64,000 bases of DNA, taken from positions 229,724-293,723 of the forward strand of contig JBDKTO010000074.1 of assembly GCA_039680175.1 (NCBI GenBank), given 5' to 3'. The notes beneath the pieces are model-generated. The model ran no database searches. It saw only the letters and a list, made by a program, of their open reading frames with translations, and was not told where the DNA came from. Below, piece after piece: positions 11,731 to 52,483 of this stretch. This DNA comes from Veillonellales bacterium. GTDB taxonomy: Bacteria; Bacillota; Negativicutes; JAAYSF01. Every line of letters begins with the position of its first letter. Within the stretch, counting starts at the first letter, position 1. Made by a program: the position numbers and the translations under genes.

Positions 11731-11812
11731 TTTCTCCTGCTAAAGTTTTGGATTGCCTTTTTAAAACAGGCGTTTGACCTTTTAACAGGATATTATGAAA
11801 GGAAGGTGCAGT

Positions 11813-28559: not shown

Positions 28560-28740
28560 ATGAATAAGTGAGCCTTTGGGGCAAGGTGAAAAAGAGCAAT
28601 CTTTTAATTCCTGACCGGCGGTAATTAGCCCGCGAGCCATTTGGCAGATCCGGTGAAATCCCGGAGCCGACAGTAGAGTCTGGATGAAAAAAGGCAAAGT
28701 AATAGAAATTATATATTTCTATTACTCTATTTTTCTGACT
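28560..28740 (+). ncRNA. FMN riboswitch (RFN element) with attenuator terminator
   Basis: ...CTTTGGGGCAAGGTGAAA...TTCCTGACCGGCGGTAATTAGCCCGCGAGC...GATCCGGTGAAATCCCGGAGCCGACAGTAGAGTCTGGATG matches the RFN consensus. A 12-bp hairpin agtaatagaaat/atttctattact plus T-run follows at 28697-28735. Confidence 0.85.
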
Positions 28741-28790: not shown

Positions 28791-28816
28791 GCCCCTTGAG
28801 AGGAGAAAATTTGGTT

Positions 28817-29944
28817 ATGGATGAATTTTACATGCGACAGGCATTACATATTGCCCAAAATGCACTTGGCCGTACCAGTCCCAATCCTATGGTGGGAGCA
28901 GTAGTTGTCAAAAACGGCGAAATAGTTGGCTATGGCTGGCACAAACGTGCCGGTACTCCCCACGCGGAAATACATGCTTTAAAACAGGCAGGCGAGCTGG
29001 CGGCAGGGGCAACACTGTATGTGACACTGGAGCCATGCTGCCACCACGGCAGAACCGGGCCTTGTACAGAGGCCGTCATTCATGCCGGTATTAAAAAGGT
29101 CGTTATCGCAATGACCGATCCGAACCCGCTTGTAGCCGGCTGCGGCTTAGCGAAATTACGGGAAGCGGGGATTGAAGTCATAGAAGGTGTTCTGGCGAAT
29201 GAAGCAGCACAAATGAATGAAGTGTTTATTAAATGGATAGCCACGAAAATGCCTTTTGGTGTCCTAAAAACCGCTATGACCCTTGATGGCAAAATTGCAA
29301 CTTCAACCGGAGATTCCCAGTGGATTACCGGACCGGCAGCCCGGCAGCGCGGGCATCAGTTCCGCAGCCAATATGACGGAATAGTAGTAGGAATCGGTAC
29401 CGTGTTAGCCGATAATCCCTCATTAACTGCCCGCATACCTAATGGCAGAAATCCAATTCGGATTATTGTCGATACAATGGCGCGAACGCCGCTTACGGCG
29501 AAAGTGGTCGCTGATCAACTGGCGCCGACAATTATTGCTGTTTCTCCTTTGGCTCCGGCGGAGAGGGTCAGTGCCTTAAAAAATAAAGGCATAGAGATTC
29601 TCACCATTCCGCCAGATAATTCCGGCCTTGACTTACAGAGCTTATTTTTAGAATTAGGTGAAAAAGAAATTACCAGTATTTTAATTGAAGGCGGAGCACG
29701 AATCAATGCGTCGGCCCTGGAGGCAAATATTGTAGATAAAATTCATTGCTTTATTGCTCCCAAAATTATTGGCGGCAAGACCGCTCCCGGCCCGGTTGGC
29801 GGACAGGGCATTGCAAATTTATCGGCTGCTGTCTTGCTGGAAAATAGCACGATGGAATATGTAGGGGAAGATATACTAATAAGCGCTTATTTGCGCCGAC
29901 GGGAGGGACGCGATGTTTACCGGACTTGTGGAAGAATTGGGTAA
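28817..29944 (+). CDS. ribD: Bifunctional diaminohydroxyphosphoribosylaminopyrimidine deaminase / 5-amino-6-(5-phosphoribosylamino)uracil reductase
   Basis: CMP/dCMP deaminase zinc motif (HAEIHAL...PCCHHGRTGPC) plus a C-terminal reductase domain. The ATG at 28817 follows RBS GGAGAAAA. The ORF-track TTG at 28796 lies inside the terminator T-run. Confidence 0.9.
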   Translation: MDEFYMRQALHIAQNALGRTSPNPMVGAVVVKNGEIVGYGWHKRAGTPHAEIHALKQAGELAAGATLYVTLEPCCHHGRTGPCTEAVIHAGIKKVVIAMTDPNPLVAGCGLAKLREAGIEVIEGVLANEAAQMNEVFIKWIATKMPFGVLKTAMTLDGKIATSTGDSQWITGPAARQRGHQFRSQYDGIVVGIGTVLADNPSLTARIPNGRNPIRIIVDTMARTPLTAKVVADQLAPTIIAVSPLAPAERVSALKNKGIEILTIPPDNSGLDLQSLFLELGEKEITSILIEGGARINASALEANIVDKIHCFIAPKIIGGKTAPGPVGGQGIANLSAAVLLENSTMEYVGEDILISAYLRRREGRDVYRTCGRIG

Positions 29945-30569
29945 AGTAAAAGCTCTGGTCAGAGGCGCCAAATCGGTTCGCCTAACCGTTGCCGCACAAA
30001 AAATACTTTCTGATGTAAAAATAGGCGACAGCATAGCTGTGAATGGAACTTGTCTGACCGTAGTCGCTTGCGGCGATACATGGTTTACTGTCGATGTCAT
30101 GCCCGAGACCGTTGAACGGACGGCTTTGGTCGCTTTAAAGCCTGGTGATGCTGTAAATTTGGAGCGGACGCTGCGGTTAGGTGATCGTTTTGGCGGTCAT
30201 ATCGTCAGCGGGCATATTGACGGTACAGGCAGCATCTTAGCTATGAAGCGGGATGATAATGCGGTAGTCGTGCGAATTGAGGCTAAGCCGGAAATCATGA
30301 AATATATTATAAAAAAAGGTTCTATCGCAATTGACGGTATTAGCTTAACTGTAGTCGATTATGGTGCAAATTGGTTTACCGTATCACTCATTCCTCACAC
30401 TGCCGCGATGACTACCCTGGGGATCAAAACAACAGGCGATTCTGTAAACCTGGAGAATGATATGATCGGAAAATATGTGGAGAAATTGTTAGGACTTAAA
30501 GATCCGCCCAATAACAAACCGGCAGCTTTTACCCAGGCTTTTTTACAGGAAAATGGGTTTACGCTATGA
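29913..30569 (+). CDS. ribE: Riboflavin synthase alpha chain
   Basis: MFTGLVEELGKV... and two lumazine-binding repeats. Confidence 0.9.
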   Translation: MFTGLVEELGKVKALVRGAKSVRLTVAAQKILSDVKIGDSIAVNGTCLTVVACGDTWFTVDVMPETVERTALVALKPGDAVNLERTLRLGDRFGGHIVSGHIDGTGSILAMKRDDNAVVVRIEAKPEIMKYIIKKGSIAIDGISLTVVDYGANWFTVSLIPHTAAMTTLGIKTTGDSVNLENDMIGKYVEKLLGLKDPPNNKPAAFTQAFLQENGFTL

Positions 30570-30620
30570 AATAAAGGCAGATAACTTGCTTGCAAAACTA
30601 TTATATGAGGGGGATTTATC

Positions 30621-31832
30621 ATGAAATTCAGTGCTATTCAAGACGCAATTACTGATATAAAAAATGGCAGGATGGTAGTGGTTATTGATGATGAGGATCG
30701 GGAAAACGAAGGCGATCTATTGATGGCAGCAGAAAAAGTTACACCGGAAGCAGTTAACTTCATGGTTACTTATGGGCGCGGACTCGTCTGCATGCCTATC
30801 AGTGGCGCGCGTTTGGATGAATTGGGAATTGGTGCCATGGTGAATGAGAATACGGATAATCATTGTACTGCCTTTACTGTTTCGATTGATGCGGACACGA
30901 CAACTACCGGGATTTCCGCTCACGAACGGGCAGCAACCATTAAAGCAGTTCTCGATCCGAGGACCCAACCAGAAAATCTTCGCCGTCCCGGCCATGTATT
31001 TCCGCTTCGCTATGTGGAAGGTGGGGTGCTGCGCCGGGCCGGACATACGGAAGCTGCCGTTGATCTCACTATGCTGGCAGGCTTATATCCTGCCGGAGTG
31101 ATCTGCGAAGTTATGAATGAAGACGGAACAATGGCCAGAACGCCTGAATTACTGGATTTTGTCGCCAAACATAATCTTAAAATTATTACGATTGCCGATT
31201 TAATTAAATATCGCAAAATGAATGAAAAATTTATCGTCCGTGCGGCTGAAACCACTCTGCCGACGAAATATGGTACATTCCGGCTGATTGCCTACGAAAG
31301 TGAGCTTGATCGGCAATGCCACGTTGCCTTAATAAAAGGCGATGTAGCCGGTAAAAAAAATGTTCTTGTCCGCGTTCACTCGGAATGTTTAACCGGCGAT
31401 GTATTAGGCTCGCTGCGCTGCGACTGCGGTGAACAACTAGCAAGCGCTTTGCGTCGGATTGAAGCGGAAGGCACCGGCGTACTTCTTTATATGCGCCAGG
31501 AAGGACGGGGTATTGGTTTGGCAAATAAGATTCGTGCCTATGCCCTGCAAGATAAAGGCAAAGATACCGTAGAAGCCAATGAAATACTTGGCTTCGCCCC
31601 TGATTTGCGGGATTACGGCATCGGTGCTCAAATCCTGGCAGACATTGGGCTAACCAGTATCCGTTTATTGACGAATAATCCGAAAAAGCGGGCCGGGCTG
31701 GAGGGCTATGGTTTAAAAATTTCCGAAAGGGTACCGCTGGAAATGAAGGCTAACCGGTTCAATCAACGCTATCTATCCACTAAAAAAACAAAGCTGGGAC
31801 ATATCTTGAAACAGTATGAGGAGGCAAAATAG
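30621..31832 (+). CDS. ribBA: Bifunctional 3,4-dihydroxy-2-butanone-4-phosphate synthase / GTP cyclohydrolase II
   Basis: 403 aa. The N-terminal DHBP synthase domain carries [11 protein letters not shown]. The C-terminal GCH II domain carries a CxxC Zn site (CDCGEQL). Confidence 0.9.
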
Positions 31833-31834
31833 AA

Positions 31835-32299
31835 ATGGTAAACACTTTTGCAGGAAAATTAGTTGCTGATGGTTTGAAATTCGGTATTGTGGTAGCAAGA
31901 TTTAATGAATTTATCACCAGCAAGCTTCTCGCCGGTGCTCTGGACGCATTGCAGCGTCACGGTGCTAAAGATGATGATATCAATGTTGCCTGGGTTCCCG
32001 GTGCTTTTGAAATCCCATTAATCGCGGCAAAAATGGCAGCTAGTAAAAAGTATGACGCTGTGATTTGCCTGGGGACTGTCATCCGCGGCAATACATCCCA
32101 CTATGACTATGTATGTGCGGAAGTATCCAAAGGCGTTGCTCAGGTGGGGCTTTCTACCGGTGTGCCGACAATCTTCGGCGTTTTAACAACGGAGACCATT
32201 GAACAAGCCGTTGAGAGGGCAGGCACCAAAGCCGGCAATAAAGGCTTTGATGCTGCGGCAGCGGCAATTGAAATGGCGAACCTAATTCACAATATGTAA
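31835..32299 (+). CDS. ribH: 6,7-dimethyl-8-ribityllumazine synthase
   Basis: 154 aa with ...ARFNEFIT...VPGAFEIPL... Confidence 0.9.
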
Positions 32300-36387: not shown

Positions 36388-37866
36388 ATGGAAAAATTTG
36401 ACCTATTTCGCGATATTGCCGAACGTACTGGCGGTGATATTTATATAGGGGTAGTAGGGCCAGTACGTACAGGAAAATCAACATTTATTAAAAGATTTAT
36501 GGAAACGATGGTCTTACCAAATATCACAGATCCTTACGATAAAGAAAGAGCGAAAGATGAATTGCCGCAAAGTGCTGCCGGTAAAACTATTATGACCACT
36601 GAACCCAAATTCATTCCCAATGAGGCCGTAGAAATTAATATTAAAGATAATGTGAATGTAAGAGTCCGGGTGGTCGATTGTGTTGGTTACACGGTTGACG
36701 GAGCTTTGGGCTATGAAGAAGAAGATGGCCCGCGAATGGTACTGACTCCCTGGTATGATCATGAAATTCCTTTTCAGGAAGCGGCGGAAGTAGGAACCAG
36801 AAAAGTGATTGCCGAGCATTCGACTATTGGTATCGTGATTACGACAGATGGCACTGTTACGGATTTGTCACGAGAAAAATATCTGGCTGCCGAAGAACGG
36901 GTTGTCAAAGAATTGAAAGAATTGGAAAAACCATTTCTGCTCATCTTGAATACAAACCAGCCTACCAACAAAGAAACCCGTGAGTTAGTGGCAAAACTGG
37001 AAACCGCTTATGATGTGCCGGTAATTCCCGTAGACTGCGCCCAATTGAATCATGACGATATTTATGCGATTTTACAGGAAGTACTGTATGAATTTCCGGT
37101 TAAAGAAGTTAATATTTCCTTGCCGAAATGGGTGGAAGAACTGGATACTGAACATTGGCTGCGACAAAAATTCGATGGTTCCGTCCATGAGGTACTGCAG
37201 TATGTACGACGCCTGCGGGATATTGACCGGGCCATTGATGATTTATCCGGGTATGATTTTGTAGCCGATGTTATCCTGCATGACATGGATCTTGGCAGTG
37301 GGTTAGCCGTGATCGAAATAACTGCCCGTAATGATTTATTCTATCAGGTGCTGGAAGAACTTACCGGATTCACCATTACCGGCGAACATCATCTGCTGAG
37401 GCTTATGAAAGATTTAGCGGTAGCCAAACGGGAATATGACAAATTAGCCGGTGCTCTGGAACAAGTGCAGCAAACCGGCTATGGAATTGTACAGCCTCAG
37501 CTTGACGAGATGATCTTGGAAGAACCGGAAATTATTCGCACAGGGAATCGTTTTGGCGTAAGACTCCGGGCTATGGCGCCATCACTTCATATTATCAAAA
37601 CCGACGTTCAAGCAGAAATTTCACCTATTATTGGAACGGAAAAACAAAGCGAAGAATTAGTCCAATACCTGATGCGTGAGTTTGAAGGAGAGCCGGAAAA
37701 AATCTGGCGCACCAACTTATTTGGTAAATCCCTGAATGCCTTAGTGAGGGAGGGTATCCAAAACAAACTGTCCAGTATGCCGGAAAATGCACAAACGAAA
37801 TTAAAGGATACTCTGCAGAAAATTGTTAATGATGGCAGCGGTGGTTTAATATGCATTATCTTTTAA
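36388..37866 (+). CDS. spoIVA: Stage IV sporulation protein A (spore coat morphogenetic ATPase)
   Basis: MEKFDLFRDIAERTGGDIYIGVVGPVRTGKSTFIKRFME... (Walker A), 492 aa. RBS GGGAGGGAC is present. Confidence 0.9.
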   Translation: MEKFDLFRDIAERTGGDIYIGVVGPVRTGKSTFIKRFMETMVLPNITDPYDKERAKDELPQSAAGKTIMTTEPKFIPNEAVEINIKDNVNVRVRVVDCVGYTVDGALGYEEEDGPRMVLTPWYDHEIPFQEAAEVGTRKVIAEHSTIGIVITTDGTVTDLSREKYLAAEERVVKELKELEKPFLLILNTNQPTNKETRELVAKLETAYDVPVIPVDCAQLNHDDIYAILQEVLYEFPVKEVNISLPKWVEELDTEHWLRQKFDGSVHEVLQYVRRLRDIDRAIDDLSGYDFVADVILHDMDLGSGLAVIEITARNDLFYQVLEELTGFTITGEHHLLRLMKDLAVAKREYDKLAGALEQVQQTGYGIVQPQLDEMILEEPEIIRTGNRFGVRLRAMAPSLHIIKTDVQAEISPIIGTEKQSEELVQYLMREFEGEPEKIWRTNLFGKSLNALVREGIQNKLSSMPENAQTKLKDTLQKIVNDGSGGLICIIF

Positions 37867-37905: not shown

Positions 37906-38823
37906 TTACCATGGCGGCGGCGTTTGAGCATTAATCACACGGAATGTAAAACCATGCTCTTTAAAAAATTTAATAATTTCGGGAAGTGCCTTGACTGTTT
38001 CGCCATGGCCGCTTCCGTCATGCATCAGCACAATTGCATGGCTCCACAAAAACTTATTATCCATTTGGTACACGATATTGCCAACCAGCTGTTCGGCTTT
38101 GGCACTCGAAGCATCACCGGAACTAACGTTCCAGCCTTCTTCAAGATAGCCTTCTTGTTTCAAAAGTTCCCAATACGCCTTGGTAAAGCTGCCGACTGAT
38201 CCCCCGGGAGCGCGAGAAATATGGGGACGAACGCCAATGACGTTTTTAATAATTTCATCCGTCCGATGAAGCTGCCCGGTATAAGAAGCCGGAGATTGAT
38301 AAAGCTGGCGGTAAATGTGGTTATAGGAATGATTTCCAATGGCATGCCCGTCTTGATAAACCATTTGTAATACATCAGGAAACTTTTCTACTTGCGTGCC
38401 GACTACAAAAAAAGTAGCCTTAATCCCGTTATCTTTCAGAATTTGTAATACTTCCGGCGTGTTTTGCGGATCAGGACCGTCATCAAAGGTTAAATAAACC
38501 ACTTTTTCACCATAGTAAGGCGGAAGCACCGGCAACTGAGTCGGCAGATTTCCTGCCTGCCGCTCGGCGACTGTCAGCGTATCGTAAAAGGGCTGATCAC
38601 CCGGCGGTAATTCCATATTATTTTCAGCAAGATAATAAGCATCCGGATGATCCGGCGCCGGTGCCGAATCAAGGCCGTCGCTGCTCGCAGAATCTATCGC
38701 AGGAGAAAAAGCAGCGGAATCCAAGTAAAAAGCTAAGGTAATAAGAGGAGAAGAAATCAATAATGTAAGGAAAAAAGTTAAACCAACACAAAGAGTTCGA
38801 AAGGTACTGGAATTTCTTATCAT
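37906..38823 (-). CDS. Polysaccharide deacetylase (NodB-domain, PdaA/PdaB-like) with an N-terminal signal/anchor
   Basis: NodB motifs TFDDGP and HSYNH, plus an N-terminal hydrophobic segment. Confidence 0.8.
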   Translation of the reverse strand: MIRNSSTFRTLCVGLTFFLTLLISSPLITLAFYLDSAAFSPAIDSASSDGLDSAPAPDHPDAYYLAENNMELPPGDQPFYDTLTVAERQAGNLPTQLPVLPPYYGEKVVYLTFDDGPDPQNTPEVLQILKDNGIKATFFVVGTQVEKFPDVLQMVYQDGHAIGNHSYNHIYRQLYQSPASYTGQLHRTDEIIKNVIGVRPHISRAPGGSVGSFTKAYWELLKQEGYLEEGWNVSSGDASSAKAEQLVGNIVYQMDNKFLWSHAIVLMHDGSGHGETVKALPEIIKFFKEHGFTFRVINAQTPPPW

Positions 38824-46134: not shown

Positions 46135-46156
46135 TGAGGCCATTGGCCTCTTTTTT
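46135..46156 (+). terminator. Intrinsic terminator
   Basis: gaggcc att ggcctc tttttt. Confidence 0.65.
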
Positions 46157-46372
46157 GCGTAGTGCAGAAACATATTGTCTTACTATTGGTGCCATTTTCT
46201 CTGATAAGTCGACCAGTATGGCCAGTAAAAATCCGGCTACTTGATAAACAATTTAGGTAAAATATTGAATAGAGACTGGTAAGAGAGAAGGGATTAGCAG
46301 AACACATTACGAATAGTAAAATAGCATTGAATTTTAATAGCTGTAATCTTATTATGAATGGCAGGGTGAAAA

Positions 46373-47167
46373 ATGATTAAAATCGCGATAATCGGTGGAA
46401 CAGGAGTATATGACCCTAGTATTCTAAATAATATTCAGGCTCATGAAGTTTCAACTCCCTATGGAACAGTCACTTTTAAGGTCGGTGAATTTAATGGTAA
46501 AGAAATTGCATTCATTCCAAGACACGGAAGCACTCATGCAATTCCGCCCCATCTTATAAACTACCGGGCCAATATTTGGAGTATGAAAAAGATCGGCGTT
46601 GAAAATATTATTGCCACAACGGCTGTCGGTTCTCTCAATCCGGCAATGAAACCTGGTGATTTTGTTTTGGTGGATCAATTTTTGGATTTTACAAAGAACC
46701 GGGTAAGCACCTTCTATGAAGGCGGAGAACGCGGTGTGGTGCATGTCGATGTTACCAGCCCTTACTGCTCCAGATTGAGGCATATCCTTGTTGCTGCCGC
46801 GCAGAAACATAAGCTCAGTATTCATCAGCTCGGTACATATGTTTGCACGGAAGGGCCGCGGTTTGAAACCGCGGCGGAAATTGCTATGTTCGCAAAACTT
46901 GGCGGCGATTTAGTCGGTATGACAAATGTGCCGGAGGCTGTGTTAGCGCATGAAGCGGAGATGTGTTATTCTACGGTGTCGATGGTTACGAATTATGCTG
47001 CCGGCATTTCGCAAACAGCTTTGACTCACAGTGAAGTCGTTGCGACGATGAAGCACAATGCTGAAGGCATTAAGCAGCTTATTATGACTGCTATTGACGA
47101 TATGAACCTGGATGAAGATTGCAACTGCCGGCATACGTTAGCCGAATACGGCGGATTTAAATTATAA
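46373..47167 (+). CDS. mtnP: MTAP-family 5'-methylthio-purine-nucleoside phosphorylase, predicted methylthioinosine-specific (Asp to Asn at the purine-6 recognition site)
   Basis: 264 aa aligning with MTAP (GTGVYDP...HLINYRANIWS...GMTNVPEAVLAHEAEMCY). In ...SMVTNYAAG the Asn (residue 207, nt 46991-46993) aligns with Asp220 of the human MTAP motif MATDYDC. Confidence 0.85.
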   Translation: MIKIAIIGGTGVYDPSILNNIQAHEVSTPYGTVTFKVGEFNGKEIAFIPRHGSTHAIPPHLINYRANIWSMKKIGVENIIATTAVGSLNPAMKPGDFVLVDQFLDFTKNRVSTFYEGGERGVVHVDVTSPYCSRLRHILVAAAQKHKLSIHQLGTYVCTEGPRFETAAEIAMFAKLGGDLVGMTNVPEAVLAHEAEMCYSTVSMVTNYAAGISQTALTHSEVVATMKHNAEGIKQLIMTAIDDMNLDEDCNCRHTLAEYGGFKL

Positions 47168-47172
47168 AGGCG

Positions 47173-48246
47173 GTGCAAGTCTTGCGTTCAATGGAATGGG
47201 ATAATTCTTGTTTAAAACTATTAAATCAAACTTTACTGCCTGGTAAAGTCGAATATAGGGAATGCCGGGATTATCGGGCAGTGGCGGAAGCAATCCGCCG
47301 TTTGGAAGTTCGCGGTGCTCCCGCGATTGGCGCGGCAGCGGCTTTTGCCTTCGTATTAGGAGCCAGGGAGATTGTGACCGAGAATGATTTTTTTGCGAAA
47401 CTGGCGGGAATTGCTGCGGAACTTAAACAAACCAGACCAACGGCAATCAATCTTTCTTGGGCTATTGAAAAGATGAGGGCAGTAGTGAATGCGTATCCGG
47501 GCAGCAAGGAAGATAAGACCGAATTGCTAACAGCGTTAGAAACAGAAGCGATCAATATCTATCAGCAGGACGAGAACGTGAATCACCGCATCTCTCAATA
47601 TGGAGCAAGTTTATTTGACAAACCGACAGCCGTATTAACTCATTGTAATGCCGGTGCTTTGGCAACTGTAGCCTGGGGAACCGCATTAGGGGTTATTCGC
47701 GCTGCCTGGTCACAAGGAAAAATAGACCGGGTATATGCCGATGAAACCCGTCCCTTGTTGCAGGGAGCAAGACTGACAGCCTGGGAATTACAACAGGATA
47801 ATATTCCGGTTACTTTAATTACCGACAATATGGCTGGCTGGATCATGAAAAAAAAGCTGGTACAATCAGTCATCGTCGGCGCCGACAGAATAACGGCCAA
47901 CGGTGATGTAGCAAATAAAATCGGCACTTATAGCGTAGCTGTACTGGCCAAACAGCATAATATTCCTTTTTATGTAGCTGCACCGGTTTCAACTTTTGAC
48001 TTTGCTATGTACAGTGGGGAGGATATCCCAATTGAAGAGCGTCAAGCCGAAGAAGTAACCGTATTTGCCGGCCACCGGATCGCACCGGAAAGCATCGACG
48101 TATTTAATCCGGCTTTTGATGTTACGCCAAGTTCCTTCGTTACGGCAATTATTACCGAGTTCGGCCTTCTGCGGTCTCCTTATTCCAGCGCGATCAGCAA
48201 ATTAAAAATCATGAAGGATGGGATGCACAATGGAATCAATGATTAA
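47173..48246 (+). CDS. mtnA: Methylthioribose-1-phosphate isomerase (eIF-2B alpha/beta/delta-like)
   Basis: 357 aa with ...RGAPAIG...THCNAGALAT... motifs. The start may instead be the TTG at 47182. Confidence 0.85.
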   Translation: MQVLRSMEWDNSCLKLLNQTLLPGKVEYRECRDYRAVAEAIRRLEVRGAPAIGAAAAFAFVLGAREIVTENDFFAKLAGIAAELKQTRPTAINLSWAIEKMRAVVNAYPGSKEDKTELLTALETEAINIYQQDENVNHRISQYGASLFDKPTAVLTHCNAGALATVAWGTALGVIRAAWSQGKIDRVYADETRPLLQGARLTAWELQQDNIPVTLITDNMAGWIMKKKLVQSVIVGADRITANGDVANKIGTYSVAVLAKQHNIPFYVAAPVSTFDFAMYSGEDIPIEERQAEEVTVFAGHRIAPESIDVFNPAFDVTPSSFVTAIITEFGLLRSPYSSAISKLKIMKDGMHNGIND

Positions 48247-49471
48247 AAATATCAGTCTTGCCCCTCAGGGACATGATAAAATTAACTGGGTGAGGCAGTT
48301 TATGCCGGTTCTCAATATTTTAAATGATAAATTATCCCACGACAGGCCATTAAAGGGGAAAAATATGGTTTTAACAATGCATTTAGAAGCTAAAACAGCC
48401 TATTTGGCACTGGTGCTAAAAAATGCCGGCGCAAATGTAGCCGTTACCGGCAGCAATCCGTTATCGACCCAGGACGACGTAGCGGCAGCCTTAGCGGAGC
48501 AGGGAGTGACCGTGCTTGCCTGGTACAACACTTCAGCCGAAGAATATAAACAGTTGCTGCATAGAGCATTAGATACTAAACCGAACATTATTGTCGACGA
48601 TGGCGGCGATTTGGTATCTTTACTGCATACAGAACGCCGGGAACTGCTTGACAATATCTGGGGTGGATCGGAAGAAACGACTACAGGCGTAATTCGTCTA
48701 AAAGCCTTAGCCGCAGAGGGGCGACTGAAATTTCCGATGATAGCGGTAAATGACGCCTACTGCAAGTATCTGTTTGATAACCGGTATGGTACGGGGCAGT
48801 CTACTTGGGATGGAATTATGCGGACAACCAATCTTACTGTAACCGGTAAAACAGTTGTCATTGCCGGATATGGCTGGTGCGGCAAAGGAGCTTCCATGCG
48901 GGCGAAGGGGCTGGGGGCTAATGTGATCATAACCGAAGTAAACCCGATTAAAGCCATAGAAGCCGTTTTTGATGGCTTTCGGGTTATGCCGATGCAGGAA
49001 GCCGCGAAACTGGGCGATATCTTTGTCACGCTAACCGGATGCAAAGATGTGATCCGTCAGGAACATTTTGCCGTGATGAAATCCGGAGCGATTTTGGCTA
49101 ACGCCGGCCACTTTGATGTGGAAATCAATAAAACGGATTTGTCGCAAGCGGCAGTATCCCGCCGGGATGTTCGTAAAAATATCGAAGAGTTCGCCATGGC
49201 TGACGGACGTAAAATTTATCTGCTGGCCGAAGGGCGGTTAGTAAATCTTGCCGCCGGCGACGGACATCCTACAGAAATCATGGATTTGTCTTTTGCTATG
49301 CAAGCTTTGGCCGTACTGCATATTGCCGAACATCATGGTGAAATGGAAAATAAAGTATATACTATAGAGGATGCAATGAACAACCGTGTAGCCTCGCTTA
49401 AATTGGGAGCAATGGGGCTGGCAATTGATCATTTATCCGCGGAACAGCAGCAATATCTCAAGCAGGCATGA
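48230..49471 (+). CDS. ahcY: Adenosylhomocysteinase-family hydrolase (SAH or S-inosylhomocysteine hydrolase)
   Basis: NAD-binding GYGWCGKG and other AhcY motifs. The ATG at 48230 has RBS GAAGGATGGG. It overlaps the mtnA 3' end. Confidence 0.85.
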   Translation: MESMIKNISLAPQGHDKINWVRQFMPVLNILNDKLSHDRPLKGKNMVLTMHLEAKTAYLALVLKNAGANVAVTGSNPLSTQDDVAAALAEQGVTVLAWYNTSAEEYKQLLHRALDTKPNIIVDDGGDLVSLLHTERRELLDNIWGGSEETTTGVIRLKALAAEGRLKFPMIAVNDAYCKYLFDNRYGTGQSTWDGIMRTTNLTVTGKTVVIAGYGWCGKGASMRAKGLGANVIITEVNPIKAIEAVFDGFRVMPMQEAAKLGDIFVTLTGCKDVIRQEHFAVMKSGAILANAGHFDVEINKTDLSQAAVSRRDVRKNIEEFAMADGRKIYLLAEGRLVNLAAGDGHPTEIMDLSFAMQALAVLHIAEHHGEMENKVYTIEDAMNNRVASLKLGAMGLAIDHLSAEQQQYLKQA

Positions 49472-49500
49472 TACAGTAAGGGTATTGGAGCGAATATAAA

Positions 49501-50166
49501 ATGAACGGATATTCTGAAATTAAGCTGGAAATTTTAACGGCTGGGATTGCTCTTTTTAAAAAAAATCTGGTAACCGGGACCTGGGGAAATCTTAGTTCGC
49601 GAGTGCCCGGAACTGATTTATTGGCTATCACCCCTTCCGGACGGGATTATCGAAAATTGCAAAATGATGATATCGTCATTGTTGGCAGAAATGGTCTTAC
49701 GGTACAGGGGCATTTAATACCATCATCTGAATTGCCGCTGCATTTGGCCATTTATAAGGCACGGCAGGATGTACAAGCAATTGTGCATACCCATAGTGTT
49801 TTTGCCAGCGCTTGTGCAGTTGCCCGCAGGGCGATTCCGCCTATTATTGAGGATTTGGTTCAAGTAACAGGCGGTAGTGTTGAGGTAGCCGAATATGCAC
49901 TACCGGGAACGGCGGAACTGGCACGAAACGTGGTAACAGCATTGGGAAACCGCAGCGCAGCCCTACTCGCCAATCATGGCGTTGTTTGCTGTGCCCGAAG
50001 CGTAACAGAAGCGATGACAGCTTGCGAACTGGTGGAAAAAGCAGCCGAAATTTATCTGTACGCCCAACAGCTTGGCGGTGCCGTTACTCTTAATCAACAG
50101 GATGTTGCGACGATGCATGAATTTTACGTAAAGCATTATCGAAAACTTCAAGGAGACGATGAATAA
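49501..50166 (+). CDS. Class II aldolase/adducin-family protein (MtnB dehydratase-like or Ald2/fuculose-phosphate-aldolase-like)
   Basis: 221 aa with ...GTWGNLSSR...HTHS... metal-binding His motifs of class II aldolases. Confidence 0.75.
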   Translation: MNGYSEIKLEILTAGIALFKKNLVTGTWGNLSSRVPGTDLLAITPSGRDYRKLQNDDIVIVGRNGLTVQGHLIPSSELPLHLAIYKARQDVQAIVHTHSVFASACAVARRAIPPIIEDLVQVTGGSVEVAEYALPGTAELARNVVTALGNRSAALLANHGVVCCARSVTEAMTACELVEKAAEIYLYAQQLGGAVTLNQQDVATMHEFYVKHYRKLQGDDE

Positions 50167-51453
50167 GTGGCAAAAATTTTGTTAAAAAGCGCCGAAGCAT
50201 TGACGCCGGATGGTGCGATAAAGCAGCATGATATTGCAATTGAGGGTTGTCTCATTTCCTATGTCGACACAATTCCTGCCGGCTGGCAGGCCGACCGTAT
50301 TATTGACTGCAGCGGCAAACTTGCGATACCCGGTATGATAAATACCCATACCCATGCGGCCATGACACTGTTTCGCAGTTATGCCGACGATATGCTCCTA
50401 ATGGATTGGCTGCAAAATAAAATCTGGCCGGCAGAAGCCAATTTAACCGAGAAAGACGTATATTGGGGAACGCTGCTGTCTATTGCCGAAATGCTGAAAT
50501 CAGGAACAACTACTTTTGCCGACATGTATTTTTTTATGCCGCAAGTAGCCCGAGCAGTTGCTGAGAGCGGTATCCGCGCGGTTTTGTCCCGCGGTATGAC
50601 CGGCGTTGCTCCCAATGCTGAACAGGCGTTGATTGAGAGTGAAGACTTCTTTAAACAGTTTCATCAGGCCGCTAATGGGCGCATAACCGTCATGCTTGGA
50701 CCCCACGCCCCCTATACCTGTCCACCGGAGTATCTGAGAAAAGTGGTAGCATTAGCGGAACGATTACAAGCGGAAATTCACATTCACTTAGCGGAAACAA
50801 AGGATGAAGTGGAAAATTGCCTGAAACAATACGGCAAATCACCGATTGCTTTGATGGATGAAATCGGCGTACTGGATTGCGGCGTATTAGCCGCTCATTG
50901 CGTTCATGTGTCACAGGAAGATATAGCGATTATGCAGAAGAAGAAAGTTCGTGTTGCACATAATCCGGGAAGCAACATGAAACTGGCCAGCGGGATTGCG
51001 CCGGTACCGGAAATGTTAAGTGCCGGATTATGTGTGGGATTGGGTACCGATGGCGCTGCCAGCAACAACAATCTGGATATGATCAGGGAAATGCGTTTAG
51101 CAGCCACGCTCCACAAAGTACATACGCTGGATCCTTTGGCTATACCGTCCAAAACGGCAGTGGATATGGCTACAGTCAACGGGGCAAAAGCACTGGGGCT
51201 GGACCATATAACCGGTTCTATTGCCGTTGGTTATAAAGCAGATATCGCTTTATTGGATATTCATGCTCCCCATTGGTATCCGACACATGATAAACTATCG
51301 CTTCTGGCTTATTCAGCCGCCGCCAGCGATGTGCATACCGTGCTGGTAGACGGACAAATTTTACTGGAGAACAGGCAATTAACAACTATTGATGAAGAAC
51401 AATTGCTTTATGAGGTGCAAAAACGGGGAGTGCGTCTTGTAGAAAAACTATAA
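50167..51453 (+). CDS. mtaD: 5'-methylthioadenosine / S-adenosylhomocysteine deaminase (amidohydrolase superfamily)
   Basis: 428 aa with PGMINTHTHAAMT (HxH metal site) and the MtaD/TM0936-like pattern. The GTG start abuts the upstream stop. Confidence 0.85.
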   Translation: MAKILLKSAEALTPDGAIKQHDIAIEGCLISYVDTIPAGWQADRIIDCSGKLAIPGMINTHTHAAMTLFRSYADDMLLMDWLQNKIWPAEANLTEKDVYWGTLLSIAEMLKSGTTTFADMYFFMPQVARAVAESGIRAVLSRGMTGVAPNAEQALIESEDFFKQFHQAANGRITVMLGPHAPYTCPPEYLRKVVALAERLQAEIHIHLAETKDEVENCLKQYGKSPIALMDEIGVLDCGVLAAHCVHVSQEDIAIMQKKKVRVAHNPGSNMKLASGIAPVPEMLSAGLCVGLGTDGAASNNNLDMIREMRLAATLHKVHTLDPLAIPSKTAVDMATVNGAKALGLDHITGSIAVGYKADIALLDIHAPHWYPTHDKLSLLAYSAAASDVHTVLVDGQILLENRQLTTIDEEQLLYEVQKRGVRLVEKL

Positions 51454-51517
51454 TGGCAATTGCGATTCATAGAAGAATGTTATAAAATAGTAACAAGTAA
51501 TGGAGAGGGGTAGTATA

Positions 51518-51865
51518 ATGCGTGCCTTAAATTTTTATTCCTCAAATTATCACAATCAATTGGTTTGCCGACGTAAAACCTGCACGATTCGCCGTGGCGA
51601 TAAAACAGATAAGTATTCGGAAGGTGATATTGTCTGGGTAACAGTAGGGAAACGCTTCTCCCAAAGAAAGAAAATTTATACTGCCGTTATTGACCGAGTT
51701 CTTGTTAAGCCAATCTCTCAGCTTACAAAAGAAGATTTGCAAGGCGAAAATCCAGATATTACTAGCGTCGATGATTTAATGGACTTTTTGCAGTCTGTTT
51801 ATGATAAGACGTTGACCCTCAGTGACACTGTCACTGTGGTTTATTTCTCTGAAATCATCGAATAG
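51518..51865 (+). CDS. ASCH-domain protein, YqfB-like (PUA-like fold; predicted N4-acylcytidine amidohydrolase family)
   Basis: RRKTCTIRRGDK...EGDIVWV... resembles the YqfB ASCH core. RBS GGAGAGGGG lies 7 nt upstream of the ATG at 51518. Confidence 0.55.
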   Translation: MRALNFYSSNYHNQLVCRRKTCTIRRGDKTDKYSEGDIVWVTVGKRFSQRKKIYTAVIDRVLVKPISQLTKEDLQGENPDITSVDDLMDFLQSVYDKTLTLSDTVTVVYFSEIIE

Positions 51866-51907
51866 CAGGTATATATAATTTAAATGGCAGAAGGAGTGTA
51901 AGTAATA

Positions 51908-52483
51908 ATGTCTGACAAAAAAATTCCAGTGGGTATTTCCGCACGGCACGTACATGTTTCCCGGGAAGATCTTGATATTCTTTTTGGCTCAGGCTATGAG
52001 CTTACTGTTAAGAAGGCTTTGTCTCAGCCGGGACAATTTGCCAGTAATGAAACAGTAGATTTGGTAACAGAGAAAAACACTTTTAAAAAGGTACGAATTT
52101 TAGGACCAATACGTAACGCAACTCAAGTGGAACTTGCTTTGACGGATGGAATGAAACTTGGCTTAAAGCTGCCAGTCAAGGATTCCGGGAATCATGCGGG
52201 AACACCCGGTATTACGATTGTAGGACCTAAAGGGTCGGTAGATATTAAACAGGGAGTCATCGCTGCCTGCCGTCATATTCACATGACTCCGGCCGATGCC
52301 GCGCAGCATAATGTGAAAGATAAAGAAATTGTGCAAGTAAAATTTGAAGGTGACCGTGCATTGATATTTGATAAAGTCTTGATTCGAGTCAGCGATACTT
52401 GTAAATTAGATATGCATATTGATACTGATGAGGCAAATGCTTGTATGTGTAAAAATGGGGATACGGTTGAAATTATAAAGTAG
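51908..52483 (+). CDS. pduL: PduL-type phosphate acyltransferase (phosphate propanoyl/acetyltransferase)
   Basis: 191 aa with the duplicated PduL fold (...GISARHVHVS..., ...AACRHIHMTP...). No other pdu/eut genes lie nearby. Confidence 0.8.
   Translation: MSDKKIPVGISARHVHVSREDLDILFGSGYELTVKKALSQPGQFASNETVDLVTEKNTFKKVRILGPIRNATQVELALTDGMKLGLKLPVKDSGNHAGTPGITIVGPKGSVDIKQGVIAACRHIHMTPADAAQHNVKDKEIVQVKFEGDRALIFDKVLIRVSDTCKLDMHIDTDEANACMCKNGDTVEIIK

What the first reader, a model, noticed from the sequence alone, without database searches (positions are those of the whole stretch)
46373..51453. Clustered hypoxanthine-route recycling module for SAM by-products (MtaD deaminase, MTAP-like phosphorylase, MtnA, class II aldolase, AhcY)
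Five consecutive same-strand genes with overlapping or abutting ends encode an MTA/SAH deaminase (MtaD), an MTAP-family phosphorylase, MTR-1-P isomerase (MtnA), a class II aldolase-family protein and an AhcY-family hydrolase. No MtnN nucleosidase, MtnK kinase or downstream MtnW/X/D genes are in the window. A deaminase next to an MTA phosphorylase is redundant unless the deaminase acts first (MTA to methylthioinosine, SAH to S-inosylhomocysteine) and the phosphorylase and hydrolase are MTI- and SIH-specific. An aldolase immediately after MtnA, with the rest of the classical methionine-salvage pathway absent here, would fit an anaerobic DHAP-shunt-type endpoint. Each enzyme type is known individually: PaMTIP in Pseudomonas, DadD/SIH hydrolase in Methanocaldococcus, and the Ald2 DHAP shunt in Rhodospirillum and E. 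coli. A single operon combining all of them in a Firmicute is not, to my knowledge, a described arrangement.
Basis: partly seen in the sequence, partly recalled or inferred. Interest (0 to 1): 0.7.

Follow-up and report, generated by a model that had tools for sequence, protein, structure and literature searches.

The report
Deaminase-first SAM by-product recycling operon
Five adjacent genes in a Negativicutes bacterium appear to clear the toxic leftovers of S-adenosylmethionine reactions by first converting them to inosine forms, joining an archaeal-style route to a sugar-splitting end step; every enzyme type is known, but I found no description of this combined, widely conserved operon.

Summary
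Five intact + strand genes at 46373-51453 form one tightly packed unit: an MTAP-family phosphorylase, MtnA, an AhcY-like hydrolase, a class II aldolase and an MtaD/DadD-type deaminase.

The interpretation survives independent sequence tests.
- The hydrolase carries the HxExK fingerprint of the enzymes shown to prefer S-inosylhomocysteine. All 80 Negativicutes homologues carry it too.
- The phosphorylase has Glu and Asn where adenine-specific MTAPs have Ser and Asp. The characterised Pseudomonas methylthioinosine phosphorylase has the same Glu and Asn.
- A deaminase follows the hydrolase in 67 of 70 loci.
- The aldolase keeps the FucA/DrdA catalytic residues and fails the MtnB model.

The identical five-gene order recurs in 24 of 64 species, including gut Phascolarctobacterium. 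Four-gene and two-gene forms occur elsewhere.

Caveats:
- The phosphorylase 5' pocket has a PNP-like His, so it may also take inosine.
- The aldolase lacks the usual Tyr.
- The genome-wide absence of mtnN, luxS and mtnK could not be checked.
- Nothing has been assayed.

Verdict: a new variant of known kinds. It combines the S-inosylhomocysteine route with a third, deaminase-first entry to the DHAP shunt.

The parts
46136..46150 (+). Intrinsic terminator of the upstream DUF3792 gene. It marks the 5' boundary of the unit.
   Evidence: GAGGCC-ATT-GGCCTC followed by TTTTTT.
46294..46355 (+). Two overlapping sigma-70-like promoter candidates in the 252-nt leader. No riboswitch is present.
   Evidence: The consensus scan gives 9 of 12 matches for each site, which is weak evidence. 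Rfam found nothing at the gathering threshold or at E<=1. The leader is not conserved between loci.
46373..47167 (+). MTAP-family phosphorylase of the 6-oxopurine (Glu-Asn-Ala-His) class. Predicted substrates are 5'-methylthioinosine, 5'-deoxyinosine and probably inosine.
   Evidence: It passes TIGR01694 (313.7 bits, cut-off 274.85) and the NF006599 MTI phosphorylase model (267.4, cut-off 223). The motifs GPRFET, TNYAAG and LTHSEV contrast with MTAP F-S, T-D-Y-D and V/A, and with PaMTIP L-E-T, V-N-P-A-A-G and Met. Across the loci Glu is 38/38, Asn 38/38 and His 33/38.
47173..48246 (+). MtnA, the 5-methylthioribose-1-P / 5-deoxyribose-1-P isomerase.
   Evidence: It passes NF004326 (468.6 bits, cut-off 271) and TIGR00512 (441.8, cut-off 279). 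Its ribose-1,5-bisphosphate isomerase score is 201.7, below the 314 cut-off. It starts 5 nt after the phosphorylase stop and lies directly upstream of AhcY in 34 of 67 loci.
48218..49471 (+). Archaeal-type AhcY with the HxExK fingerprint, a predicted S-inosyl-L-homocysteine hydrolase. The likely start is 48230.
   Evidence: Its best solved relatives are PfuSAHH 7r37 (549 bits), MmaSAHH 7r3a and TmSAHH 3x2e. HLEAK aligns with the motifs of those enzymes. All three prefer SIH in assays. HLEAK is present in 80 of 80 loci.
49501..50166 (+). Class II (metal-dependent) aldolase. Its predicted substrates are 5-deoxyribulose-1-P and 5-methylthioribulose-1-P, giving DHAP plus acetaldehyde or 2-(methylthio)acetaldehyde.
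   Evidence: PF00596 scores 180.5 bits. It scores 142 bits to S. pneumoniae FucA 4c24 and 115 bits to B. thuringiensis DrdA 6btd. The PSSE, VHTH and NHG motifs are conserved. MtnB TIGR03328 scores 82.9, below the 137 cut-off. The FucA Tyr113 position is Glu-Asp in 28 of 28 loci.
50167..51453 (+). MtaD/DadD-type amidohydrolase. It is predicted to deaminate SAH, MTA and 5'-deoxyadenosine to their inosine forms.
   Evidence: Its best solved relative is 4f0r, a 5-methylthioadenosine/S-adenosylhomocysteine deaminase (334 bits). Tm0936 scores 257 bits. The HTHTH metal motif and the equivalents of Tm0936 Trp75, Glu84 and Arg136 are conserved. A deaminase lies within 2.5 kb downstream of AhcY in 67 of 70 loci.
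51500..52483 (+). Syntenic downstream neighbours: an ASCH-domain gene (51500-51865) and an orphan PduL phosphotransacylase (51908-52483). They may be co-transcribed, and their membership of the unit is uncertain.
   Evidence: No terminator lies between 51453 and 51500. Both are conserved downstream in most Sporomusaceae loci but are absent from most Acidaminococcaceae and Selenomonadaceae loci.

Best explanation
The five genes form one operon that disposes of the adenosyl by-products of SAM chemistry through their hypoxanthine (inosine) forms. Adenine and adenosine are never released.

Step 1 (inferred from family, residues and linkage). The MtaD/DadD-type deaminase irreversibly converts SAH to S-inosylhomocysteine, MTA to 5'-methylthioinosine and 5'-deoxyadenosine to 5'-deoxyinosine.

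Step 2 (inferred from a fingerprint validated in vitro in homologues). The HxExK-type AhcY hydrolyses S-inosylhomocysteine to homocysteine and inosine.

Step 3 (base specificity inferred from three determinants; 5' range uncertain). The Glu/Asn-type MTAP-family phosphorylase cleaves 5'-methylthioinosine and 5'-deoxyinosine, and probably the inosine from step 2. The products are hypoxanthine plus the sugar-1-phosphate.

Step 4. MtnA isomerises 5-methylthioribose-1-P and 5-deoxyribose-1-P to the ketose-1-phosphates.

Step 5 (inferred). The class II aldolase cleaves these to DHAP plus 2-(methylthio)acetaldehyde or acetaldehyde.

The operon thus joins the Methanocaldococcus/Thermotoga S-inosylhomocysteine route to a deaminase-first version of the bacterial DHAP shunt.
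For: Anatomy. The five ORFs are intact and co-directional with junctions of +5, -29/-17, +29 and 0 nt. A terminator lies upstream and a promoter-like leader follows it.

Hydrolase. HLEAK aligns with the motif of the SIH-preferring PfuSAHH, TmSAHH and MmaSAHH. Those enzymes score '+' on SAH and '+++' on SIH, and the motif Lys hydrogen-bonds O6 of inosine in crystals (PMC10978960). The motif is present in 80 of 80 loci.

Phosphorylase.
- Glu165, Asn207 and Ala209 are shared with PaMTIP 3ozb and differ from all solved MTAPs.
- It passes the NF006599 model.
- Among the 150 nearest 50%-identity representatives plus the window protein and PaMTIP, the three base-site residues fall into two exclusive classes: E-N-[A/G/C] (109) and S-D-D (33).

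Linkage.
- A deaminase follows AhcY in 67 of 70 Negativicutes loci.
- In an independent metagenome sample outside this clade, a deaminase lies within 3 kb of 11 of 38 Glu-Asn phosphorylases and 0 of 15 Asp-type ones (Fisher p=0.016).
- In that sample the deaminase occurs only beside phosphorylases with His or Tyr at the 5'-pocket site. The arrangements include PNPase-MtnA-deaminase and PNPase-MtnA-aldolase.

MtnA passes its equivalog model.

Aldolase. The FucA/DrdA catalytic Glu and three His are kept. It fails the MtnB model. It is inserted between AhcY and the deaminase in 24 of 64 loci.

Precedent. M. jannaschii MtiP yields MTR-1-P and 5dR-1-P from MTI and 5'-deoxyinosine (review PMC6302742). 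DrdA and Ald2 cleave 5dRu-1-P and MTRu-1-P (PMC6079011 and PMC13474568).
Against: - No enzyme of this operon or of any Negativicutes homologue has been assayed.
- The HxExK rule rests on six archaeal or Thermotoga enzymes, and those enzymes still turn over SAH weakly.
- The phosphorylase has His219 where human PNP has its 5'-OH ligand His257 (own knowledge) and where PaMTIP has Met. It could be mainly an inosine phosphorylase.
- The deaminase falls below every NCBIfam equivalog cut-off (534.6 against 609; 395 against 522; 311 against 779). It has Ala at the position aligned with Tm0936 Arg148.
- The aldolase lacks the Tyr equivalent to FucA Tyr113 and passes no curated aldolase equivalog.
- After dereplication at 90% the metagenome association is no longer significant on its own (8 of 28 against 0 of 8, p=0.10).
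- Ten species keep the other four genes without the aldolase.
- Whether mtnN, luxS or mtnK exist elsewhere in the genome is unknown.
Confidence: 0.7

Rival explanations
1. SAH-only module plus general purine salvage. The deaminase and hydrolase recycle SAH through S-inosylhomocysteine. The phosphorylase is simply a 6-oxopurine nucleoside phosphorylase that clears the released inosine. MtnA and the aldolase then serve some other sugar-phosphate, or ribose-1-P is converted to ribulose-1-P and on to DHAP plus glycolaldehyde.
For: The PNP-like His219 sits at the 5'-OH ligand position, and UniRef names homologues 'Probable 6-oxopurine nucleoside phosphorylase'. PNPase-AhcY-deaminase clusters without MtnA exist (L023, L027). 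The aldolase scores 161 bits to the haloarchaeal ribulose-1-phosphate aldolase model.
Against: The phosphorylase and MtnA are adjacent, 5-30 nt apart, in about 35 Negativicutes loci. In other lineages they occur as PNPase-MtnA-deaminase or PNPase-MtnA-aldolase without any AhcY, so the phosphorylase is not tied to SIH hydrolysis. MtnA passes the MTR-1-P isomerase equivalog. I know of no MtnA that acts on ribose-1-P (own knowledge). The ribulose-1-P aldolase score is far below its cut-off of 300.
Confidence: 0.15
2. Conventional adenine-route enzymes that happen to be clustered. MTAP cleaves MTA, AhcY hydrolyses SAH, and the amidohydrolase deaminates something else, such as adenosine, adenine or a futalosine-type intermediate.
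For: NCBI names the homologues MTA phosphorylase and adenosylhomocysteinase. The proteins pass TIGR01694 and TIGR00936. HxExK enzymes retain some SAH activity.
Against: Both adenine N6-binding Asp residues are replaced (Asn207, Ala209), and a PNP-type Glu is present. The HxTxE(Q) motif of SAH-preferring enzymes is absent. The deaminase is linked to AhcY in 67 of 70 loci. The aminofutalosine deaminase model scores 120.8 against a cut-off of 320.
Confidence: 0.08
3. The front end of a full methionine-salvage pathway. The aldolase-family protein acts as an MtnB-like dehydratase, and the remaining steps are encoded elsewhere.
For: MtnB belongs to the same Aldolase_II superfamily, and TIGR03328 gives a partial hit on residues 13-103. 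A DapL-like aminotransferase follows the deaminase in Sporomusa.
Against: The MtnB score is 82.9 against a cut-off of 137 and covers only the N-terminal half. The best matches are FucA and DrdA, with the FucA-type catalytic Glu. The classical pathway needs an O2-dependent dioxygenase, and these are strict anaerobes (own knowledge). The aminotransferase is absent from the window, and its best hits are LL-diaminopimelate aminotransferase models.
Confidence: 0.05

Closest known systems
Methanocaldococcus jannaschii DadD - SIH hydrolase - MtiP - MTR-1-P isomerase network (White laboratory), and the Thermotoga maritima Tm0936 plus TmSAHH route
   Same: Both use the deaminase-first logic and the same four enzyme families. 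The hydrolase has the same HxExK fingerprint. The phosphorylase acts on the hypoxanthine forms of MTA and 5'-deoxyadenosine (PMC10978960 and PMC6302742).
   Different: - In M. jannaschii the genes are scattered (MJ1541, MJ1388, MJ0060, MJ0454; own knowledge). Here they form one operon.
- The host is a mesophilic diderm Firmicute, not a thermophile or archaeon.
- The end step here is a dedicated class II aldolase. In M. jannaschii it is the proposed route to 6-deoxy-5-ketofructose-1-P.
DHAP shunt (Rhodospirillum rubrum MtnP-MtnA-Ald2; ExPEC E. coli MtnK-MtnA-Ald2; Bacillus thuringiensis DrdK-DrdI-DrdA)
   Same: An MtnA-type isomerase is followed by a FucA-like class II aldolase. The pathway has a dual role for MTA and 5'-deoxyadenosine. 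The genes are arranged as an operon (PMC6079011, PMC10986504, PMC13474568).
   Different: - Entry is through a deaminase plus a 6-oxopurine-type phosphorylase. The two characterised entries are MtnP, or MtnN plus MtnK.
- An SAH-branch hydrolase is embedded in the same operon.
- The aldolase has Glu-Asp where FucA and DrdA have a Tyr.
Pseudomonas aeruginosa MTA deaminase (PA3170, PDB 4gbd) plus MTI phosphorylase (PA3004, PDB 3ozb)
   Same: A deaminase is followed by an MTAP-family phosphorylase that has Glu and Asn in place of Ser and Asp at the base-binding sites.
   Different: - Identity to PaMTIP is only 38%.
- The 5'-pocket residue is His here and Met in PaMTIP.
- To my knowledge the Pseudomonas genes are not in one operon with MtnA, an aldolase or AhcY. 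Pseudomonas SAHH is the long HxTxE type that prefers SAH.
MTAP-family 6-oxopurine nucleoside phosphorylases (for example the Pyrococcus furiosus PNP; UniRef name 'Probable 6-oxopurine nucleoside phosphorylase')
   Same: Both have the MTAP fold with PNP-like Glu, Asn and His determinants and a C-terminal CxC motif. UniRef gives this name to the Sporomusa, Lucifera and Thermosinus orthologues.
   Different: That enzyme is described as an inosine/guanosine phosphorylase for purine salvage (own knowledge). Here the gene is wired to MtnA and a deaminase, which implies 5'-modified substrates.

Membership tests
SIH-preferring SAHH subgroup (SIHH; Koeppl et al. 2024) | AdoHcyase substrate domain plus NAD domain | tested here: met
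   PF05221 and PF00670 are both present. NF004005 scores 675.6 bits against a cut-off of 275.
SIH-preferring SAHH subgroup (SIHH; Koeppl et al. 2024) | HxExK nucleobase-binding fingerprint instead of HxTxE(Q) | tested here: met
   HLEAK at residues 55-59 aligns with HLEMK (7r37), HLEAK (3x2e) and HLEAK (7r3a). It is present in 80 of 80 related loci.
SIH-preferring SAHH subgroup (SIHH; Koeppl et al. 2024) | Short archaeal-type architecture (no ~40-aa insertion, short C-terminus) | tested here: met
   The 417-aa protein aligns end to end with the 405-441-aa archaeal and Thermotoga chains. Long-type chains of 460-498 aa align only from about residue 142 onward.
SIH-preferring SAHH subgroup (SIHH; Koeppl et al. 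2024) | A DadD-type SAH deaminase encoded in the same genome | tested here: met
   The deaminase lies in the same operon (50167-51453). One follows AhcY in 67 of 70 loci.
SIH-preferring SAHH subgroup (SIHH; Koeppl et al. 2024) | Higher conversion of SIH than of SAH in vitro | not testable with these tools
   This needs an enzyme assay.
5'-methylthioinosine phosphorylase (PaMTIP / MjMtiP type) | MTAP-family fold, scoring above the curated MTI phosphorylase model | tested here: met
   NF006599 scores 267.4 bits against a cut-off of 223. The protein also passes the MTAP model TIGR01694 (313.7, cut-off 274.85).
5'-methylthioinosine phosphorylase (PaMTIP / MjMtiP type) | 6-oxopurine determinants replacing the adenine-binding Ser178, Asp220 and Asp222 (human MTAP numbering) | tested here: met
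   The window has Glu165, Asn207 and Ala209. PaMTIP has Glu, Asn and Ala. All solved MTAPs have Ser, Asp and Asp. The two classes are mutually exclusive in the 152 aligned family sequences.
5'-methylthioinosine phosphorylase (PaMTIP / MjMtiP type) | Hydrophobic 5'-alkylthio pocket residue (Val233 in human MTAP, Met in PaMTIP) | tested here: not met
   The window has His219 (33 of 38 loci; Tyr in 5). This resembles human PNP His257 (own knowledge). It is not established that this residue defines the family. His-type enzymes are the ones linked to a deaminase and MtnA.
5'-methylthioinosine phosphorylase (PaMTIP / MjMtiP type) | Preference for MTI or 5'-deoxyinosine over MTA | not testable with these tools
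   This needs an enzyme assay.
MTA/SAH/5'-deoxyadenosine deaminase (MtaD, DadD, Tm0936) | Amidohydrolase fold with an HxH metal site, and characterised MTA/SAH deaminases as the closest relatives | tested here: met
   PF01979 scores 272 bits. 4f0r scores 334 bits and Tm0936 scores 257 bits. The HTHTH motif and the equivalents of Trp75 and Glu84 are conserved.
MTA/SAH/5'-deoxyadenosine deaminase (MtaD, DadD, Tm0936) | Score above a curated equivalog cut-off | tested here: not met
   NF004701 scores 534.6 (cut-off 609), NF005557 (5'-deoxyadenosine deaminase) scores 395.1 (cut-off 522), and NF012037 (MTA/SAH deaminase) scores 311.1 (cut-off 779). The assignment is therefore at family level only.
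MTA/SAH/5'-deoxyadenosine deaminase (MtaD, DadD, Tm0936) | Arg pair binding the homocysteine carboxylate of SAH (Tm0936 Arg136 and Arg148; own knowledge of Hermann et al. 2007) | tested here: inconclusive
   The Arg136 equivalent is present (LSRGM). The position aligned with Arg148 is Ala, but it lies in a gapped loop.
DHAP shunt | MtnA-type MTR-1-P / 5dR-1-P isomerase | tested here: met
   TIGR00512 scores 441.8 bits against a cut-off of 279.
DHAP shunt | Clustered FucA-like class II aldolase (Ald2 or DrdA) that is not an MtnB dehydratase | tested here: met
   The Glu and three His are conserved. DrdA 6btd scores 115 bits. The MtnB model scores below its cut-off. The gene lies between AhcY and the deaminase in 24 of 64 loci, and the same subfamily occurs in PNPase-MtnA-aldolase trios elsewhere. 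The Tyr equivalent to FucA Tyr113 is absent.
DHAP shunt | Entry by MtnP acting on MTA or 5'-deoxyadenosine, or by MtnN plus MtnK | tested here: not met
   The phosphorylase lacks the adenine-binding Asp pair. No MtnN or MtnK is in the window. A deaminase is present instead. This is why I call it a variant and not a member.
DHAP shunt | Formation of DHAP plus acetaldehyde or 2-(methylthio)acetaldehyde | not testable with these tools
   This needs an enzyme assay or metabolomics.
Classical methionine salvage pathway | MtnB dehydratase and MtnW/X or MtnC, plus MtnD | tested here: not met
   None was found among the scanned ORFs of the 64-kb window.

The most novel reading that the evidence does not exclude
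The operon is a self-contained disposal system for all three SAM by-products (SAH, MTA and 5'-deoxyadenosine) that never releases adenine. It would be run by one trifunctional deaminase and one trifunctional His-type 6-oxopurine phosphorylase acting on inosine, MTI and 5'-deoxyinosine. It would replace MtnN/LuxS across the class Negativicutes, including the gut genera Phascolarctobacterium, Megamonas and Mitsuokella. It would also define a third entry to the DHAP shunt, a new specificity class within the MTAP family, and a Tyr-less aldolase subfamily.
Probability: 0.4. Interest if true: 0.65.

Novelty: new variant of a known kind. Interest (0 to 1): 0.55.

Why it matters
- The S-inosylhomocysteine route has so far been treated as a curiosity of some Euryarchaeota and 'archaeal-type' thermophilic bacteria. 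Here its fingerprint is invariant in 80 mesophilic Negativicutes species, several of them abundant gut or rumen organisms, and the hydrolase is almost always followed by the deaminase.
- The operon is natural genetic evidence that four enzymes studied separately in M. jannaschii work as one pathway. It also shows that this pathway can end in the bacterial DHAP shunt.
- It supplies testable sequence rules: Glu/Asn against Ser/Asp in MTAP-family enzymes, and HxExK in AhcY. These rules would correct routine annotations such as 'MTA phosphorylase' and 'adenosylhomocysteinase', and the metabolic models built on them. The models affected include those for adenine versus hypoxanthine salvage, AI-2 production and 5'-deoxynucleoside use.
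- It also points to tractable organisms for experiments, namely Pelosinus and Phascolarctobacterium.

Tried and rejected
- Primary PaMTIP and PaMTADA papers (PMC3040260, PMC3567251) and the DadD paper (PMC3957708). None is held. I recovered the PaMTIP sequence by querying the PDB with a sequence recalled from memory. The deposited 3ozb chain matched it exactly, and I used only the printed chain.
- Comparison with a characterised Ald2. A blastn of the window mtnA against E. coli genomes found nothing. The E. coli papers give no coordinates. Ald2 was therefore not compared, and DrdA (6btd) served as the characterised comparator.
- Leader RNA. There was no Rfam hit at the gathering threshold or at E<=1, and no conserved leader in an alignment of six loci. 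Riboswitch control is rejected on present evidence.
- Sporomusa flanking genes as methionine-salvage enzymes. The HAD is a PpaX-type pyrophosphatase and the aminotransferase is DapL-like. I rejected them as MtnX or MtnE candidates.
- Names for the nearest non-Negativicutes phosphorylase representatives. Most are unnamed metagenome proteins, and no characterised archaeal enzyme was recovered.
- Literature search for SAH, MTA or deoxyadenosine deaminase. The only new bacterial operon mention, in P. gingivalis, is unrelated.
- Genome-wide check for mtnN, luxS or mtnK.
- His219 as evidence against an MTI role. I rejected this after finding that His-type enzymes are the ones linked to deaminases and MtnA.

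Full report
OBSERVATION

The window carries five intact + strand ORFs exactly within 46373-51453. Pfam and NCBIfam assign them as follows.
- 46373-47167: an MTAP-family phosphorylase.
- 47173-48246: MtnA, which passes TIGR00512 with 441.8 bits against a cut-off of 279.
- 48218-49471: an adenosylhomocysteinase-family protein.
- 49501-50166: a class II aldolase.
- 50167-51453: an amidohydrolase whose closest solved relatives are MTA/SAH deaminases. 4f0r scores 334 bits and Tm0936 scores 257 bits.

The junctions are +5, -29, +29 and 0 nt. The -29 becomes -17 from the start codon that homologues support. A clean intrinsic terminator (46136-46150) ends the upstream DUF3792 gene, and promoter-like hexamers follow it. 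There is no riboswitch in the leader.

The surroundings are housekeeping genes. Upstream lie psd, pssA, a GT2 glycosyltransferase and surE. Downstream lie an ASCH gene, PduL and the mraZ-rsmH-ftsL cell-division cluster. metK sits behind a SAM riboswitch 34 kb upstream. No MtnN, LuxS, MtnK or MtnB/W/X/D was found among the window ORFs that I scanned.

SOURCE AND CONSERVATION

The phosphorylase is 100% identical to a protein from a Veillonellales MAG. A scan of one genome per species, anchored on the AhcY gene, returned 80 loci. All are Negativicutes, except a few MAGs labelled only Bacillota or 'bacterium' and one short contig labelled Patescibacteria. tblastn of the window proteins against these loci shows a modular but highly conserved locus.

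A deaminase lies within 2.5 kb downstream of AhcY in 67 of 70 loci that have room for it. Among the 64 loci with full flanks, the architectures are:

| Architecture | Loci | Examples |
|---|---|---|
| Five genes, identical order | 24 | Pelosinus, Dendrosporobacter, Acidaminococcaceae, many Phascolarctobacterium |
| Four genes, no aldolase | 10 | Sporomusa, Propionispira |
| AhcY-deaminase only | 26 | Selenomonadaceae, Megamonas, Mitsuokella |
| AhcY alone | 3 | Anaerovibrio |
| Phosphorylase-AhcY-deaminase | 1 | - |

The arrangement is therefore real, old and under selection. It is not a peculiarity of this genome.

THE HYDROLASE

Koeppl et al. 2024 (PMC10978960) assayed 18 SAHHs. Enzymes with an HxExK nucleobase-binding motif prefer S-inosylhomocysteine, and enzymes with HxTxE(Q) prefer SAH. 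In their crystal structures the motif Lys hydrogen-bonds O6 of inosine.

The window protein's best solved relatives are exactly those SIH-preferring enzymes: PfuSAHH 7r37 (549 bits), MmaSAHH 7r3a and TmSAHH 3x2e. Its HLEAK aligns column for column with their HLEMK, HLEAK and HLEAK. All 80 Negativicutes homologues carry HLEAK.

That paper places the motif in some Euryarchaeota and in 'archaeal-type' thermophilic bacteria. Its invariance in a mesophilic bacterial class is an extension of that range.

THE PHOSPHORYLASE

HMMER alignments to solved MTAPs (human, S. solfataricus, S. tokodaii, A. pernix) show that all of them read T-D-Y-D at the adenine-binding site, which is human Asp220 and Asp222. 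The window protein reads T-N-Y-A. It also has Glu in GPRFET where MTAPs have Ser178.

From my own knowledge of the structures, these are the positions of human PNP Glu201 and Asn243, the 6-oxopurine determinants. The only structurally characterised MTI phosphorylase is P. aeruginosa 3ozb, whose sequence I verified. It has the same Glu, Asn and Ala, and the window protein passes NCBIfam's MTI-phosphorylase model.

I aligned the 150 nearest 50%-identity representatives from 1.84 billion proteins, together with the window protein and PaMTIP. The three base-site residues fall into two mutually exclusive classes. E-N-[A/G/C] has 109 sequences, which include the window protein and PaMTIP. S-D-D has 33. 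A hypoxanthine or guanine base preference is therefore a robust inference.

The 5' pocket is less clear. At human MTAP Val233, which is Met in PaMTIP and Ala in archaeal MTAPs, the window enzyme has His219 in 'LTHSEV'. This resembles the 5'-OH ligand His257 of human PNP in 'NHEEV' (own knowledge). The residue is His in 33 of 38 loci and Tyr in 5. Taken alone, this would suggest a plain inosine phosphorylase.

Gene neighbourhoods argue otherwise. In an independent metagenome sample around a 51%-identical relative:
- A deaminase lies within 3 kb of 11 of 38 Glu-Asn phosphorylases and 0 of 15 Asp-type ones (Fisher p=0.016). After dereplication at 90% this is 8 of 28 against 0 of 8 (p=0.10).
- Within the Glu-Asn class, the deaminase occurs only beside enzymes with His or Tyr at the pocket site (8 of 19 against 0 of 9). 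By my hand calculation from the counts, the hypergeometric probability is about 0.024.
- The arrangements are PNPase-MtnA-deaminase, deaminase-PNPase-MtnA and PNPase-MtnA-aldolase, all without AhcY.

The His-type enzyme is therefore the one that evolution couples both to a deaminase upstream and to MtnA downstream. This fits substrates such as 5'-methylthioinosine and 5'-deoxyinosine. Inosine released by the hydrolase is a likely third substrate. The M. jannaschii enzyme is reported to accept six nucleosides (PMC6302742).

DEAMINASE, ISOMERASE AND ALDOLASE

The deaminase keeps the HxH metal site and the equivalents of Tm0936 Trp75, Glu84 and Arg136. The position aligned with Arg148 is Ala, in a gapped loop. 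It falls below every NCBIfam equivalog cut-off, so only a family-level assignment is justified. Its role on SAH is inferred mainly from its near-obligate pairing with the SIH-type hydrolase.

MtnA is a clear equivalog.

The aldolase scores best against FucA (4c24, 142 bits) and the 5-deoxyribulose-1-P aldolase DrdA (6btd, 115 bits). It keeps the catalytic Glu (PSSE) and the three metal-binding His. It fails the MtnB dehydratase model, scoring 82.9 against a cut-off of 137 on the N-terminal half only.

One oddity remains. The Tyr equivalent to FucA Tyr113, which DrdA also has, is replaced by Glu-Asp ('IEDxxQ'). This holds in all 28 cluster aldolases and in the non-Negativicutes PNPase-MtnA-aldolase trio. 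The effect on catalysis is unknown.

MECHANISM

The best-supported reading, with confidence about 0.7, is a deaminase-first 'hypoxanthine route'.
1. SAH, MTA and 5'-deoxyadenosine are deaminated.
2. SIH is hydrolysed to homocysteine and inosine.
3. MTI, 5'-deoxyinosine and probably inosine are phosphorolysed to hypoxanthine plus a sugar-1-phosphate.
4. MtnA and the aldolase convert the 5-modified sugars to DHAP plus 2-(methylthio)acetaldehyde or acetaldehyde.

What is shown directly is the gene anatomy, the family memberships, the specificity fingerprints and the conserved linkage. The actual substrates, the products and co-transcription are all inferred.

I also infer a rationale. An irreversible first step pulls the by-products away from methyltransferases and radical-SAM enzymes, which they inhibit. 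This would suit anaerobes rich in radical-SAM enzymes.

The rivals are set out in the rival-explanation entries. They are an SAH-only module plus a general PNP (0.15), conventional adenine-route enzymes (0.08) and the front end of classical methionine salvage (0.05).

COMPARISON WITH WHAT IS KNOWN

Every enzyme type has a precedent:
- the M. jannaschii DadD, SIHH, MtiP and MTR-1-P isomerase network, and the T. maritima Tm0936 plus SAHH pair;
- the P. aeruginosa MTA deaminase plus MTI phosphorylase;
- the DHAP shunt of R. rubrum, ExPEC E. coli and B. thuringiensis.

Published gene-cluster surveys describe kinase- or phosphorylase-isomerase-aldolase trios without a deaminase or AhcY (PMC6079011). 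A July 2026 review states that two DHAP-shunt variations have been characterised, starting with MtnP or with MtnN plus MtnK (PMC13474568). My full-text searches found no description of a deaminase-first shunt, or of an operon that merges it with the SIH route. Subscription papers, notably North et al. 2020 and Miller et al. 2015 and 2018, could not be read.

I therefore rate this a new variant of known kinds, not a new kind of system.

VERDICT

- The gene order differs from the title.
- 5'-deoxyadenosine and inosine are likely substrates, so 'MTI-specific' is too narrow.
- The module is class-wide and modular.
- The aldolase is an atypical FucA relative.

Interest is moderate (0.55). A specialist would not be astonished, because each step is precedented. 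The value lies elsewhere:
- The operon gives natural genetic proof that the steps belong together.
- It moves the SIH route into mesophilic and gut bacteria.
- It suggests a third entry to the DHAP shunt.
- It offers simple sequence rules that would re-annotate thousands of 'MTA phosphorylase' and 'adenosylhomocysteinase' genes.

Noticed in passing
window 51500-51865 (likely start 51518): A small ASCH-domain gene follows the deaminase after 46 nt with no terminator. It is 80-89% identical across Sporomusaceae loci, which is more conserved than the five enzymes (roughly 55-82%). It keeps its place between the cluster and PduL. Its function is unknown.
   Followed up: partly
window 51908-52483: An orphan PduL-type phosphotransacylase, outside any microcompartment locus, is syntenic downstream of the cluster. 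In L012, L020 and L072 it follows the deaminase directly. A link to the acetaldehyde produced by the aldolase is conceivable but untested.
   Followed up: no
window 49501-50166 (residues 117-122); L095 7057-7677: The cluster aldolase has Glu-Asp ('IEDxxQ') where FucA Tyr113 and the DrdA Tyr sit. This is invariant in 28 of 28 Negativicutes loci and in a non-Negativicutes PNPase-MtnA-aldolase trio. From my own knowledge, the AraD epimerase has a catalytic Asp at that position.
   Followed up: partly
window 11577-11680 and 11795-13003: A SAM (S-box) riboswitch scoring 78.2 bits lies directly upstream of metK. SAM synthesis is therefore riboswitch-controlled in this genome, while the by-product operon has no detectable riboswitch.
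   Followed up: partly
window 28568-28699: An FMN riboswitch (102.5 bits) lies upstream of ORFs at 28796-32299. I take these to be the riboflavin operon from their sizes and position, not from a family search.
   Followed up: no
L001 7470-8117 and 12663-13838; L081 4154-4807: Sporomusa and several other loci add a PpaX-type HAD pyrophosphatase directly upstream of the phosphorylase. Sporomusa also has an LL-diaminopimelate-aminotransferase-like gene between the deaminase and ASCH. Both are absent from the window.
   Followed up: partly
window 46373-47167 (residues 250-252): The phosphorylase has a C-terminal CxC motif (C-N-C) that is conserved in 38 of 38 loci. From my own knowledge, a CxC motif has been described as a stability element in hyperthermophilic archaeal MTAP and PNP enzymes. 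Its conservation in mesophiles is unexplained.
   Followed up: no
L016 (DATMYQ010000116.1): A 3.3-kb contig carrying AhcY-aldolase-deaminase at 65-79% identity to the window is labelled 'Patescibacteria group bacterium'. This is probably a binning error in that MAG.
   Followed up: no
window 36388-37866 and 37906-38823: spoIVA and a pdaB-like deacetylase show that the source is an endospore-forming Negativicute.
   Followed up: no
window 1020-2129 (-): A 369-aa protein has two 4Fe-4S motifs and an FrhB/FdhB C-terminal domain but no NCBIfam match.
   Followed up: no
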